A DNA stretch of 64,000 bases, taken from positions 1 to 64,000 of the IMG/VR virus record IMGVR_UViG_3300043449_000692; one strand, written 5' to 3'. The notes below the pieces were generated by a model. The model saw only the letters and a program-made list of their open reading frames with translations, made no database searches and had not been told where the DNA came from. A program made the translations under genes and the position numbers. Position 1 is the first letter of the stretch; every line of letters starts with the position of its first letter. The DNA is from a virus. Shown here in pieces: positions 195 to 59,795 of the stretch.

Positions 195-202
195 TGCTGT
201 GG

Positions 203-230
203 AGTGTATGTGATGGGGTGCAGAAGTCAA
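203..230 (-). promoter_or_regulatory. sigma70-like early promoter
   Basis: TTGACT-16nt-TACACT, 8 nt upstream of ATG 194. Confidence 0.55.
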
Positions 231-524
231 GAAAAAAAGAAAACGGTTCTTCAGGCACACACTCGGAATATTTGAAAAGTTGTGGGGGCGTGGTATGGGA
301 ACCCAATATTTGAAAACTTGGGTGGGGTGGGAGTCCCACGGCGATTTTTTGAAATGTGTTTTGTGATTTTGGATTCGCGGTGCTAACGCGCCCACTAAAC
401 CCCACCACAGACTGCCGTACACTGTTGTCCGACAGAGAGCCGCAGAGAGCCGCAGTGTGTGGGTGTGGTGGTGCGAACCTGTAACTGGTGCTTACAGGTT
501 GGGCGCGGAGAAAACTGTGGATAT

Positions 525-560
525 AAAAAAACCCCTGCCTGTGCGTAGTCAGGCAGGGGC
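525..560 (-). terminator. Rho-independent terminator
   Basis: 10-bp GC stem followed by TTTTTTT on the minus strand. Confidence 0.85.
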
Positions 561-613
561 GTTGCAGATGATGGGAGTCGAAACCCCCAAGGCGGCGAAC
601 CGCTTGTCTCTGC
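525..613 (-). ncRNA. Putative late small RNA (3-way junction plus intrinsic terminator)
   Basis: CTAAATA motif at 618-624. A GCAGA/TCTGC stem encloses two UUCG-capped hairpins, followed by CCCCTGCCTG/CAGGCAGGGG and T7. Confidence 0.55.
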
Positions 614-616
614 TTT

Positions 617-931
617 TTATTTAGTCTTCATACCGAGGAAGCCCTGTGCAATCAGCACCCAGCCTCGCGCAGTCAGGTCATTCCATACGGTACGCGCATT
701 GTCAGTGAACAGGGAGATGTGCCAGTCGCGCTGTAGGCGATACGCGCCATCTAGCACTGCGAGTGGTGAGCCGTCCCGCGTGGTGCAGGTGAGCCACACG
801 AATGTGAAGCCACCGTTGGGATCGTAGTGGAAGGTCACAGTGGTGAAGCCTTGACTGGACGGCTCCATGAGGACGCGGTAGTGGGTGCAGTGGTGCTTGT
901 GGGCAGTGGATTGGAATTCTTTAGTGTTCAT
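617..931 (-). CDS. Hypothetical protein
   Basis: 104-aa ORF, co-oriented with neighbours. Confidence 0.6.
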   Translation of the reverse strand: MNTKEFQSTAHKHHCTHYRVLMEPSSQGFTTVTFHYDPNGGFTFVWLTCTTRDGSPLAVLDGAYRLQRDWHISLFTDNARTVWNDLTARGWVLIAQGFLGMKTK

Positions 932-948
932 TGGTGGTGTTTCAGAAA

Positions 949-1030
949 TAGGGACACACGGATTCGAACCGTGACACCTTTCGGTACTTCATTTTGAGTG
1001 AAGCGCGGCTGCCAGTTACGCCATGTCCCC
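949..1030 (-). tRNA. trnL: tRNA-Leu(CAA)
   Basis: GGGGACA acceptor, CTTCA-CT-CAA-AA-TGAAG anticodon arm, long variable arm, GGTTCGAATCC T-arm. No encoded CCA. Confidence 0.93.
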
Positions 1031-1387
1031 ATGTTTGTGCAGTATACGGTGGCAGTTAGCACACAGCAATACGCACTTGTTTATTTCTTCGTTTAGAGTT
1101 TTGGTTCCGTAAGAGAACGCGCTTAATTTCGCAACAGTGGTTTTCTTGGTCTTGGGATCAGTGTGATGAAAGTCCAATCCACACGGATCTTCGTTCCACC
1201 CACAACGAGAACATCCCATTTTTGACTTTAGTTCATTTACCGCTTTCCGATTTCGTTCCCGCAATCGTTGATTGGTTTCCCGAAAGCGGTCTTTGTTGTC
1301 CAGATAGTACTGCTGTGTCTGTGCTTTGGTGCGTTCGTAGTACTCGCGGCGATGGGCTTTTCGTTTTTCGGGGTCGGCATAGGGCAT
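1016..1387 (-). CDS. Free-standing HNH endonuclease
   Basis: CSRCG...LDFHH...CVLLCANCHRILH motif, basic N-terminus, GGAGG SD before ATG 1387. Confidence 0.88.
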   Translation of the reverse strand: MPYADPEKRKAHRREYYERTKAQTQQYYLDNKDRFRETNQRLRERNRKAVNELKSKMGCSRCGWNEDPCGLDFHHTDPKTKKTTVAKLSAFSYGTKTLNEEINKCVLLCANCHRILHKHGDMA

Positions 1388-1433
1388 GGGGTCTAAATCC
1401 TCCACATCTATTTAGAATCCCCATGCCCTATGC
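1377..1433 (-). promoter_or_regulatory. Start-codon-sequestering hairpin containing a late promoter
   Basis: 15-bp perfect inverted repeat 1377-1391/1419-1433 plus inner 7-bp stem; CTAAATA at 1409-1415. Confidence 0.75.
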
Positions 1434-1444
1434 TGAATATTTAA

Positions 1445-29339: not shown

Positions 29340-29914
29340 TCGTCCGCCACGCGGACATCTTCAGGCAGACTCTCGTACATCTTCTTGCAGATATAGTACG
29401 AGTCAACAATATCTGAAACAGGACTCACGGACTCCTGACGCTTCGGTGTCAGGAGTCCTTTCAGATCCACTCCTGTTTCCTTCAGCCATGAATCGTACAT
29501 GGCGTTCTTGTCTGCGTTGCCCTTGCCTGTGGCGTACTTCTTCACCTCGGTGGGCGGGATGATCGTGACAGGAATGCTCAACTGATACAGTTTGTATTTG
29601 AGAATGCCAGTGTTCTCTGCGATGTGAAACACCTTGCCGCTGGCAGAGTAGGCGTATCCCTCAAGTGCCACATGAGCGCATCCCATCACGATGTCGATTG
29701 CCCAGTCAGCAATCGTTTCGTAGCGGTGCTGATCACTATCCCAATCGCTCAACCGTTCACCGAATATGTTTAGTGTGCGGATCTCGCTCTGCCGCTTGTT
29801 GTCCGTCAGGAAGTAGAACGAGCAGCCGCTGTAAGAGAATTTTCCCGTAGAGTTTGCGCGGAACAGGCACACGGCTGGACCACAGAGAGAATAATCAATT
29901 CCTGCTATCACCAT
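29336..29914 (-). CDS. RuvC-like Holliday junction resolvase
   Basis: IAGIDYS, ALEGYAY, PTEVKKYATGKGNADK, DIVDSY. Confidence 0.8.
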   Translation of the reverse strand: MVIAGIDYSLCGPAVCLFRANSTGKFSYSGCSFYFLTDNKRQSEIRTLNIFGERLSDWDSDQHRYETIADWAIDIVMGCAHVALEGYAYSASGKVFHIAENTGILKYKLYQLSIPVTIIPPTEVKKYATGKGNADKNAMYDSWLKETGVDLKGLLTPKRQESVSPVSDIVDSYYICKKMYESLPEDVRVADD

Positions 29915-31020: not shown

Positions 31021-31054
31021 AAAAAGAAACAACCCCCGCCGAAACGGGGGTTGT
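31021..31054 (-). terminator. Rho-independent terminator
   Basis: ACAACCCCCG/CGGGGGTTGT followed by TTCTTTTT. Confidence 0.85.
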
Positions 31055-31113
31055 CGGACGGGAGATGCGATCTCCCGTGGGGTGTGTTGCTTATCTTAAG
31101 ACAGAGGCAACAC
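31021..31113 (-). ncRNA. Putative late small RNA (two hairpins plus terminator)
   Basis: CTACATA at 31116-31122; GTGTTGC/GCAACAC and ACGGGAGAT/ATCTCCCGT stems; terminator. Confidence 0.5.
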
Positions 31114-59036: not shown

Positions 59037-59795
59037 TTAAATCAAAACAGTCCAGTCTTTACTGGTTGCATTCTTACCATGCCCACAAAACGAAAACATA
59101 TTTTCGGCTTGACGCACATACCAATGGATAAACAGACGAACTCTGTCTGTATTTAGTGTCTCTATGTAAGCCCTGAATGAACTTTCCATCAAATGTACCT
59201 GTGTTGCTCGCTCTAGTATGAGTCCAAAGTTCAAAATAGATTCCGAAACATCGTTCTCTATTACCTTTAGGTTTTCAGAGTTGTACTTGGATACCCTGGA
59301 ATAATCAATCAGTCTTCCTCTAGATGAATCACCATGTACGAATATGTACGGTACATTGTCAGGATTCAATTTTTTGTAGACACGCTCTTCTTCTTCATAG
59401 TCTCTTTCATACTTAAATTGGGTATATCTGACAGAAAAATCATATCCGAGAGCAGCGTAAAATCGTTGGTGACAATCAAACTGTGGAAACGCCTGCTGCA
59501 ATTTCCAGTAGTTTTCGTGACCAACAATAAGGGTGTGACTTGGTGCTAATGTTGATACAAGTCTATCGACCTCTTTTCGCTCACCCTCTCCATCAAACTC
59601 TCCTGCGGTAGAAACAGAAACACATTGTATCTTTGGTTCGTCACGATACATTGTCGATACAGTTTGAAGATGCTGCTTCTTGACAACAAGATACAGTTTT
59701 TCAAAATCGTTGTCGAACAATATCTTTCGAACCAATCCGTTACAGGATATACAGTCTCCAAGACCAAGATGATGATACAGCAGAAGGGTTTTCAT
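59037..59795 (-). CDS. Glycosyltransferase-like protein (GT-B/fucosyltransferase-like)
   Basis: HHLGLGD...NGLVR; YIFVH; MESSF. Confidence 0.55.
   Translation of the reverse strand: MKTLLLYHHLGLGDCISCNGLVRKILFDNDFEKLYLVVKKQHLQTVSTMYRDEPKIQCVSVSTAGEFDGEGERKEVDRLVSTLAPSHTLIVGHENYWKLQQAFPQFDCHQRFYAALGYDFSVRYTQFKYERDYEEEERVYKKLNPDNVPYIFVHGDSSRGRLIDYSRVSKYNSENLKVIENDVSESILNFGLILERATQVHLMESSFRAYIETLNTDRVRLFIHWYVRQAENMFSFCGHGKNATSKDWTVLI

What the first reader, a model, noticed from the sequence alone, without database searches (positions are those of the whole stretch)
525..624. Late-promoter-driven small RNA with a 3-way junction and twin UUCG loops
Seen: on the minus strand, CTAAATA overlaps the stop of the upstream ORF. 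It is followed by GCAGA-GA-[CAAGCGG UUCG CCGCCUUG]-G-[GGGGU UUCG ACUCC]-CAUCA-UCUGC and then a strong terminator. The unit is about 90 nt with no ORF. One stem pairs fully (G-U) only on the minus strand. Inference: an independent structured phage ncRNA. I do not recognise the family.
Basis: partly seen in the sequence, partly recalled or inferred. Interest (0 to 1): 0.75.

Follow-up and report, generated by a model that had tools for sequence, protein, structure and literature searches.

The report
Conserved small structured phage RNA gene
A freshwater T4-like phage and its relatives carry, at the end of a tRNA gene block, a tiny self-contained unit (late-type promoter, about 50 nt of tightly folded RNA, terminator) whose fold is kept by compensating mutations, so it is very probably a real, unnamed small RNA whose job is unknown.

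Summary
On the minus strand, CTAAATA (624-618) overlaps the stop of a 104-aa ORF. A 51-nt three-helix RNA (613-563) follows, then AACG and a strong intrinsic terminator (560-525). Rfam and ARAGORN recognise nothing here.

About 25 related metagenome and IMG/VR loci carry the same unit in seven sequence variants. Covariation supports all helices: 8 of 19 core pairs change on both sides and 94.7% of cells pair, against 33-43% in slid controls. RNAalifold finds the same fold independently. The better-supported fold has a 7-bp P3 stacked directly on P1 and a 5-bp P2. Two variant classes have only one hairpin, so the three-way junction is not universal.

CTAAATA is enriched (12 against 2.3 expected) and is the published late promoter of T4-like phage Aeh1. 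Its spacing puts +1 on the first bases of P1. The same spacing precedes a permuted tmRNA gene in relatives.

The hairpins are swapped like a cassette between near-identical phages. Two hairpins resemble T arms of the neighbouring tRNAs.

No expression data could be obtained and the function is unknown. The closest analogue is T4 stable RNA species 1 (rnaC). This is a new small-RNA family of a known general kind.

The parts
618..624 (-). CTAAATA, a T4-type late-promoter-like motif (-12 to -6) that overlaps the stop codon of the upstream ORF
   Evidence: Sequence. It occurs 12 times in the window against 2.3 expected, always on the gene strand and mostly just 5' of ORF starts. Published as the Aeh1 late promoter (PMC1524935). 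Kept in relatives in three reading-frame contexts.
607..613 (-). P1 5' strand (GCAGAGA); the predicted transcription start falls on its first one or two bases
   Evidence: Pairs with 571-564. Pair 5 is A-U here, G-C in V4 and C-G in V5/V7; pair 2 is C-G here and U-A in V5/V7.
590..604 (-). P2 hairpin: 5 bp with one bulged C and a UUCG loop, preceded by the 2-nt linker 606-605
   Evidence: 100% of cells paired and 2 of 5 pairs changed on both sides. RNAalifold predicts the same helix.
572..589 (-). P3 hairpin: 7 bp (one G-U) with a UUCG loop, contiguous with the P1 3' strand
   Evidence: 5 of 7 pairs changed on both sides. 19 of 21 bases match the T arm and 3' end of tRNA-Leu(CAA) of relative L043, with 0 of 400 structured-null hairpins scoring as high.
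564..571 (-). P1 3' strand (UCAUCUGC, with a bulged A)
560..563 (-). Linker AACG, conserved in variants V1-V3, V5 and V7
525..560 (-). Intrinsic terminator: 10-11-bp G+C-rich stem, 8-nt loop, seven U
   Evidence: Terminator scan. Four stem pairs show compensatory changes among relatives.
617..931 (-). Upstream 104-aa ORF, the partner gene of the module, with a weak DUF1651 likeness
   Evidence: DUF1651 matches 8 of 13 members, best E 0.011. No clear fold match.
948..1031 (-). tRNA-Leu(CAA), 17 nt upstream of the ORF; it places the module inside a tRNA gene block
   Evidence: ARAGORN and Rfam. Same arrangement in relatives.

Best explanation
This is a self-contained small-RNA gene embedded at the 3' end of a tRNA-ORF operon of a T4-like freshwater phage. 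A T4-type late promoter (CTAAATA at -12 to -6) starts transcription on the first bases of helix P1. The RNA folds into a compact, almost fully paired body: P1 of 7 bp with a bulged A, a 2-nt linker, hairpin P2, and hairpin P3 stacked directly on P1. Four bases later an intrinsic terminator ends it, giving an RNA of about 85-90 nt. Early read-through transcripts of the operon would carry the same element as their 3'UTR.

The UUCG caps are generic folding nucleators. The hairpin stems vary freely and are exchanged between phages. P1 and the overall shape are what is kept. The shape resembles the acceptor-stem plus T-arm stack of a tRNA without an anticodon arm, and at least the window's P3 appears to derive from a tRNA T arm.

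I infer that it acts as a stable, protein-binding, tRNA-like RNA, like the T4 tRNA-cluster stable RNA species 1, rather than as a base-pairing regulator.

Shown: sequence, fold, covariation, conservation of the module, promoter-motif statistics. Inferred: transcription start, independent accumulation, tRNA-like mode of action.
For: Structure:
- z = -5.8.
- A model built without the window's variant finds the window element at 38.9 bits, E 4e-8, full length.
- 94.7% of cells pair against 33-43% when partners are slid. 8 of 19 pairs change on both sides, and 0 of 500 shuffles reach this.
- RNAalifold on an unfitted MAFFT alignment gives the same P1/P2/P3 plus terminator, with 9 compensatory pairs.
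- V5 and V7 have P1 = GUAGC/GCUAC and unrelated hairpin stems.

Promoter:
- Enrichment 12 against 2.3 expected, with 0 of 100 shuffles as high. C is preferred before TAAATA in 12 of 19 cases.
- Aeh1 precedent, with the motif starting at -12.
- The motif sits 4-5 nt before P1 in 6 of 7 variant classes despite three different ORF-end frames. Motif and RNA are absent together in L043-45.
- The phage is T4-like: its gp43-type polymerase is 49% identical to T4-like cyanophages.

Module autonomy: downstream genes differ between relatives, and there is a single copy per genome record.

tRNA link:
- The unit lies in a tRNA/tmRNA island.
- P3 of the window resembles the tRNA-Leu T arm (0/400), and P2 of V2 resembles the tRNA-Arg T arm minus AA (3/400).
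- T4 ends its tRNA cluster with the stable RNAs rnaD and rnaC. rnaC has a true T arm closed by an acceptor-like stem.
Against: - No expression evidence. Only assembled contigs of low-share runs were available, and they show no ends.
- V4 carries CTGAATA at a different spacing, so the fold persists without a perfect promoter.
- ACTAAATAA also encodes the conserved C-terminal Thr-Lys-stop, so part of the motif conservation could be coding.
- No gp55-type late sigma factor was found among 20 ORFs scanned. The record is only about 53% complete.
- Only 2 of 11 hairpins resemble T arms above a structured null. The loops are 4-5 nt, not 7-nt T loops. The Rfam tRNA model gives nothing at E <= 10.
- UUCG-capped hairpins are common throughout this genome (55 against 27 expected), so the twin loops are not special in themselves.
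- The covariation rests on only 5-7 distinct sequences. Part of it could come from whole-hairpin replacement rather than stepwise compensation.
Confidence: 0.55

Rival explanations
1. The element is only a 3'UTR feature of the tRNA-ORF104 operon. It would be a cluster of very stable UUCG-capped hairpins, like the intercistronic hairpins of T4, that nucleates folding, blocks 3' exonucleases or marks a processing site. On this reading CTAAATA is kept for coding or other reasons and no separate RNA has a function.
For: No terminator lies between the tRNA-Leu/ORF and the element, so read-through transcripts must contain it. UUCG hairpins are enriched genome-wide and cap other terminators. UUCG hairpins were first found in T4 mRNA and are regarded as autonomous stabilisers (PMC4371310). 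V4 keeps the fold with an imperfect promoter motif.
Against: An 11-bp G+C terminator hairpin already protects the 3' end. The enclosing helix P1 is sequence-conserved and covaries. The promoter motif keeps its -12 to +1 spacing across three frames and is lost together with the element. The same promoter-to-RNA design precedes the tmRNA gene.
Confidence: 0.2
2. It is a trans-acting base-pairing small RNA, a 3'UTR-embedded sRNA with its own promoter, that regulates host or phage mRNAs through a short seed.
For: Promoter-to-terminator architecture with a U-tail is typical of Hfq- or ProQ-dependent sRNAs (own knowledge). The terminator loop (8 nt) and AACG are conserved in most variants.
Against: Almost every base is paired, and the only single-stranded stretches are 2-8 nt. 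The hairpin stems vary freely. No complementary or repeated stretch above chance exists in the 96-kb record: two 11-mers, about as expected. The terminator loop differs in V4 and V6.
Confidence: 0.1
3. It is a decaying tRNA gene remnant or recombination scar in a region churned by homing endonucleases, with no function of its own.
For: HNH and endonuclease-VII-like genes flank it. The window's tRNA-Leu region was replaced together with an HNH gene. Two hairpins resemble T arms. The hairpin segment is mosaic: 40% different next to an ORF that is 1% different.
Against: The unit is kept across ORF divergence from 99% to under 53% identity and in seven variants. P1 pairs are compensated, every hairpin stays paired and capped, and promoter and terminator are kept. 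A dead remnant would not keep pairing.
Confidence: 0.08
4. It is a cis-acting leader. Nascent hairpins (nut/put-like) or a ligand-sensing junction would decide whether polymerase reads through the terminator into the downstream genes.
For: The order promoter, structured RNA, terminator, then genes on the same strand resembles lambda pR'-6S-tR' or riboswitch leaders (own knowledge).
Against: No conserved alternative (antiterminator) pairing exists: P1 changes to GUAGC/GCUAC while the terminator stays the same. The junction has almost no unpaired conserved bases. Downstream genes differ between relatives, lie about 330 nt away and have their own sigma-70-like promoter. One hairpin suffices in V5 and V7.
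Confidence: 0.07

Closest known systems
Phage T4 small stable RNAs species 1 and 2 (rnaC, rnaD) at the distal end of the tRNA gene cluster
   Same: Both are small, highly structured, non-coding RNAs of unknown function at the promoter-distal end of a phage tRNA block that also holds a homing endonuclease gene, followed by a terminator. T4 rnaC is closed by an acceptor-like stem next to a T arm, as P1/P3 are here.
   Different: No sequence or model similarity: R1 gives E > 3 on the T4 region. The T4 RNAs are 119-139 nt and rnaC keeps a true 7-nt T loop. Here the core is 51 nt (or 33 nt with one hairpin), the loops are cut to UUCG(U), and the unit has its own late-type promoter.
C(UUCG)G extra-stable tetraloop hairpins of T4 intercistronic regions (Tuerk et al. 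1988, as summarised in PMC4371310)
   Same: UUCG-capped hairpins in non-coding stretches of a T4-like phage, likely folding nucleators or stabilisers. They are enriched across this genome.
   Different: None of the 13 loops in the seven variants has the C-G closing pair. Closing pairs are G-C, U-A or A-U, and loops are 4, 5 or 7 nt. The hairpins are enclosed by a conserved, covarying helix and have their own promoter.
tRNA acceptor/T-arm minihelix and tRNA-like RNAs
   Same: A 7-bp terminal helix is continuous with a 7-bp hairpin on its 3' strand, with a 2-nt linker after the 5' strand. The unit sits among tRNA and tmRNA genes, and two hairpins match T arms of the neighbouring tRNAs.
   Different: There is no anticodon arm, no 7-nt T loop and no CCA. 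ARAGORN and the Rfam tRNA model do not see it. In V2 the T-arm-like hairpin is P2, not the one stacked on P1.
3'UTR-embedded bacterial sRNAs with an internal promoter (for example DapZ, MicL; own knowledge)
   Same: The promoter lies inside or at the end of the upstream ORF, and the sRNA shares the mRNA's terminator.
   Different: Those act through single-stranded seeds with Hfq. This RNA has almost no single-stranded sequence, and the promoter is a phage late type.

Membership tests
tRNA (RF00005 / ARAGORN) | Cloverleaf with an anticodon arm and 7-nt anticodon and T loops | tested here: not met
   ARAGORN finds only tRNA-Leu and tRNA-Arg. The Rfam tRNA model does not appear even at E <= 10 on 450-700. 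The loops are 4-5 nt.
Any Rfam 15 family | Score at or above the family's gathering threshold | tested here: not met
   No hit at gathering thresholds. The best sub-threshold hit is suhB/mmgR at 25 bits against 41, driven mainly by the terminator.
T4 rnaC / rnaD stable RNAs | Sequence or structure homology to the T4 RNAs | tested here: not met
   Model R1 on the T4 tRNA region with filters off gives a best E of 3.6.
T4 rnaC / rnaD stable RNAs | Position at the distal end of a phage tRNA cluster, structured, non-coding, tRNA-like closing stem | tested here: met
T4-type late transcription unit | (T/C)TAAATA element at -12 to -6, enriched upstream of late genes | tested here: met
   12 against 2.3 expected, on the gene strand. 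27 copies in the 150-kb relative and 11 in the 95-kb relative. Aeh1 precedent.
T4-type late transcription unit | Presence of a gp55-type late sigma factor and a mapped start site | tested here: inconclusive
   No gp55 family among 20 ORFs scanned with PHROGs. The record is about 53% complete. The start site cannot be mapped with these tools.
Intrinsic terminator | G+C-rich hairpin followed by a U tract | tested here: met
   11 pairs (8 G-C), then TTTTTTT. The stem covaries.
Riboswitch / attenuator leader | Conserved unpaired junction or loop bases and a mutually exclusive antiterminator | tested here: not met
   The junction has 2 unpaired nt and the loops are generic UUCG. P1 changes independently of an unchanged terminator.
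C(UUCG)G extra-stable tetraloop | A 4-nt UUCG loop closed by C-G | tested here: not met
   Closing pairs are G-C and U-A in the window and A-U or G-C elsewhere. Many loops are UUCGU.
Type III toxin-antitoxin RNA (ToxI-like) | Tandem RNA repeats, then a terminator, then a toxin gene | tested here: not met
   At most two hairpins, or one in V5 and V7. Downstream genes are variable and about 330 nt away with their own promoter.
RNA anti-CRISPR (solitary repeat mimic) | Similarity to the CRISPR repeat of the host | not testable with these tools
   The host is unknown.

The most novel reading that the evidence does not exclude
The element is a tRNA-derived mini-RNA: an acceptor-like stem plus T-arm-derived hairpins. 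The tRNA machinery would mature it (RNase P or the late start at the 5' end, RNase Z after the discriminator-like A, then CCA addition). It would then act as a decoy or competitor for a tRNA-binding host factor or anti-phage tRNA nuclease. The cassette-like turnover of the hairpin stems between otherwise near-identical phages would reflect an arms race or homing-endonuclease-driven exchange.
Probability: 0.12. Interest if true: 0.8.

Novelty: new member of a known kind. Interest (0 to 1): 0.55.

Why it matters
Phage-encoded small RNAs are few and mostly uncharacterised. The function of the T4 tRNA-cluster stable RNAs has stayed unknown for decades.

This family is compact and has a clear fold, a defined promoter and terminator, natural one-hairpin and two-hairpin forms, and natural cassette variants. 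That gives a simple system for asking what such tRNA-cluster RNAs do. If it proves to be a tRNA mimic or a decoy, it would add an RNA-based layer to phage takeover or counter-defence. If not, it is one more conserved phage sRNA suitable for an Rfam entry.

Tried and rejected
- Rfam at gathering and at E <= 10 gave no family.
- GenBank phages were searched by blastn and megablast. There are no relatives of the region, only tRNA and HNH fragments.
- An exact 25-mer of the window variant is absent from IMG/VR. A gapped P1 pattern gave 30 hits, of which only 3 were real.
- RNA-seq: only 8 low-share runs held as assembled contigs. When laid, one 200-nt contig covers 387-584 and nothing shows ends or strand. 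This is no evidence either way.
- The upstream ORF was modelled with AlphaFold (pLDDT 76). Foldseek found nothing at E <= 0.001. VIA-align gave a best Z of 6.6 (partial CYTH/TTM-like), which is within the noise range the tool states. Only a weak DUF1651 lead remains.
- A search for an antisense or repeated partner of the core in the 96-kb record found only chance-level 10-11-mers.
- No second copies: model R1 finds one copy per record.
- No gp55 was found in 20 ORFs.
- T-arm likeness was tested against a structured null. Only 2 of 11 hairpins stand out, so 'all hairpins are T arms' is rejected.
- UUCG as a specific recognition motif was down-weighted, because such loops are common genome-wide and are known as autonomous caps.
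- A DNA-level hairpin or plus-strand RNA was rejected, because the G-U pairs exist only on the minus-strand RNA and promoter and terminator are on that strand.
- Earlier notes of this scan hold nothing on look-alike sequences elsewhere.

Full report
**What is there**

The window is the first 64 kb of a 96-kb IMG/VR virus record that is about 53% complete. On the minus strand a 104-aa ORF (931-617) ends in ...ACT AAA TAA, so that CTAAATA (624-618) overlaps the stop. Four bases later comes GCAGAGA (613-607). Two hairpins capped by UUCG follow, then UCAUCUGC (571-564), AACG, and an 11-bp G+C-rich hairpin with seven U (560-525). The terminator scan also calls that hairpin.

The 106-nt stretch folds at -44.3 kcal/mol (z = -5.8, 0 of 200 shuffles as stable). 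The opposite strand folds less well. No minus-strand ORF lies in it. ARAGORN and Rfam see only tRNA-Leu(CAA) at 948-1031 and tRNA-Arg(UCU) at 1849-1923. The best sub-threshold Rfam hit (suhB/mmgR, 25 bits against 41) rests mainly on the terminator.

**Relatives**

GenBank phages have nothing similar. The upstream ORF has 12 clusters of homologues at 61-92% identity. With their alignment I fetched 22 metagenome and 4 IMG/VR loci. A terminator pattern gave one more locus, L062. In all but three loci (L043-45) the ORF is followed directly by the same unit. The unit comes in seven variants.

| Variant | Where found | Features |
|---|---|---|
| V1 | window, L035 | two hairpins; P1 is GCAGAGA/UCAUCUGC |
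| V2 | five loci | two hairpins |
| V3 | five loci | two hairpins |
| V4 | two loci | P1 is GCAGGGA/..CCUGC; an extra hairpin before the terminator; CTGAATA instead of CTAAATA |
| V5 | nine loci | only one hairpin; P1 is GUAGC/GCUAC |
| V6 | two loci | two hairpins |
| V7 | L062 | one hairpin with an unrelated stem; same P1 as V5 |

Every one of the 13 loops contains UUCG. Loop length is 4, 5 or 7 nt, and no closing pair is C-G.

**Is the fold real**

A covariance model was built only from V2, V3, V4 and V6. It finds the window's V1 over its full length at 38.9 bits, E 4e-8, with one copy per genome record.

Two versions of the fold were counted on the resulting 5-sequence alignment.

|---|---|---|
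| Cells paired | 92.6% | 94.7% |
| Cells paired when partners are slid | 29-45% | 33-43% |
| Pairs changed on both sides | 7 of 19 | 8 of 19 |
| Covariation score | 0.326 | 0.389 |
| Shuffles reaching the observed covariation score | 0 of 500 | 0 of 500 |

In the second version P2 is 100% paired.

RNAalifold, run on an unfitted MAFFT alignment of eight full-length units, independently returns that second fold plus the terminator, with 9 compensatory pairs. The P1 of V5 and V7 adds two more compensated pairs. The G-U pairs exist only on the minus-strand RNA. The element is therefore a conserved RNA structure, although the number of distinct sequences is small.

**Is it its own transcription unit**

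- CTAAATA occurs 12 times in the window against 2.3 expected (0 of 100 shuffles as high). It is always on the strand of the local genes and mostly just 5' of ORF starts. C is strongly preferred before TAAATA. Relatives have 27 copies in 150 kb and 11 in 95 kb.
- Nolan et al. 2006 (PMC1524935) identified CTAAATA, starting at -12, as the late promoter of the T4-like Aeromonas phage Aeh1. The polymerase here is gp43-like, 49% identical to T4-like cyanophages.
- With the motif at -12 to -6, +1 falls on base 1-2 of P1. The spacing is 4-5 nt in six of seven variant classes, while the linker bases vary.
- The ORF ends on the motif in three different frames (Thr-Lys-stop, Asn-stop, Gly-stop). In L043-45 the motif and the RNA are missing together.
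- A positive control comes from relatives G001 and G003. A permuted tmRNA gene (RF04321, 70.9 and 64.2 bits) begins exactly 5 nt after ATAAATA or CTAAATA, again overlapping the stop of the preceding ORF.

Against an independent unit: V4 has an imperfect motif. Part of the motif is coding. No gp55 was found in 20 ORFs of this incomplete record. Expression could not be tested, because the available runs are low-share assembled contigs without end information. Read-through operon transcripts must also contain the element, so it is both a 3'UTR and, probably, a late primary transcript.

**What kind of RNA**

Nearly all bases are paired. The hairpin stems are free to vary, while P1 and the architecture are kept.

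Between the window and L034 the ORF differs at 3 of 315 positions, the hairpin segment at 14 of 35, and the P1 strands at none. Between the window and L035 the ORF differs at 22 of 315 and the hairpins at none. The hairpin segment is therefore exchanged like a cassette.

The unit lies in a tRNA/tmRNA island interspersed with homing endonuclease genes. The window's P3 and the start of the P1 3' strand match the T arm and 3' end of tRNA-Leu(CAA) of relative L043 at 19 of 21 positions, with 0 of 400 structured-null hairpins scoring as high. P2 of V2 equals the tRNA-Arg T arm minus two A's (3 of 400). The other nine hairpins do not stand out.

A 7-bp terminal helix is continuous with a 7-bp hairpin on its 3' strand, with a 2-nt linker after the 5' strand. 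This recalls the acceptor/T-arm stack of a tRNA that lacks the anticodon arm, but the T loops are cut to UUCG(U) and the tRNA models reject it.

T4 ends its tRNA cluster, which also holds the SegB homing endonuclease, with the stable RNAs rnaD and rnaC. rnaC carries a true T arm closed by an acceptor-like stem and is followed by a terminator. This is the closest known analogue in position and design, but there is no homology.

UUCG-capped hairpins are common throughout this genome (55 against 27 expected). They were first described in T4 mRNA as autonomous, extra-stable folding nucleators (PMC4371310). The twin loops are therefore best read as caps, not recognition sites.

**Rivals**

- 3'UTR stabiliser or processing element only (0.2).
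- Base-pairing sRNA (0.1). There is little single-stranded sequence and no partner above chance in 96 kb.
- Dead tRNA remnant (0.08). Maintained pairing, promoter and terminator contradict this.
- Antitermination or riboswitch-type leader (0.07). There is no conserved alternative pairing. Downstream genes differ, are 330 nt away and have their own promoter.

**Upstream ORF**

The upstream ORF gave no functional lead: a weak DUF1651 likeness and no convincing fold match.

**Verdict**

The reading as a late-promoter-driven, structured, unclassified phage small RNA is supported by comparative evidence but not by expression data. This is a new RNA family of a known general kind (small stable RNAs of phage tRNA clusters), and its function is unknown. 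My best guess is a stable tRNA-like, protein-binding RNA. Interest is moderate.

Noticed in passing
L075 5079-5348 (+) and L070 6478-6771 (-), relatives G001 and G003: The related phages encode a permuted (two-piece type) tmRNA (RF04321, 70.9 and 64.2 bits; ARAGORN tag peptides ANRMAMAA and ATTMIANKLAMAA). It lies in a roughly 20-kb island with about 11 tRNA genes and starts 5 nt after a (C/A)TAAATA late-promoter motif that overlaps the preceding ORF's stop.
   Followed up: partly
window 200-520 (-), and the same region in L033-L062: A non-coding stretch of about 330 nt after the terminator is conserved across all variants. It has two copies of TTTTCAAATATT with flanks, blocks such as TGTCGGACAACAGTG and GGGGTTTAGTGG, and a sigma-70-like promoter at 230-203. 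This holds even though the genes downstream differ between phages. It may be a regulatory hub or an origin.
   Followed up: no
window 952-1438 (-) versus L034 2405-2480: In the window an HNH endonuclease gene plus an 84-nt tRNA-Leu(CAA) with a long variable arm replaces the 73-nt 'tRNA-Leu(CAA)' of relatives. That 73-nt tRNA has a short, class-I-like variable arm, which is unusual for a leucine tRNA.
   Followed up: partly
window 29429-29458 (+), 31028-31055 (-), and genome-wide: Hairpins with UUCG-containing loops are about twice as frequent as in shuffles (55 against 27). They cap long perfect stems (12-13 bp) that look like terminators.
   Followed up: partly
window 59130-59156 (-): CTAAATA inside a coding region is followed after one base by a 7-bp hairpin with a GUUCG loop. 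This may be an internal late promoter with a 5' stem-loop, or chance.
   Followed up: no
window 617-931 (-): The 104-aa ORF upstream of the RNA and its homologues weakly match DUF1651, a family of small picocyanobacterial proteins (8 of 13 members, best E 0.011; Atlas score 0.88). Together with the cyanophage-like polymerase this hints at a cyanobacterial host.
   Followed up: partly
L036 677-754 and L040 2876-2953: Variant V4 carries an extra conserved hairpin (GCGCCG...CGGCGC) between the three-helix core and the terminator, and lacks the exact CTAAATA.
   Followed up: no
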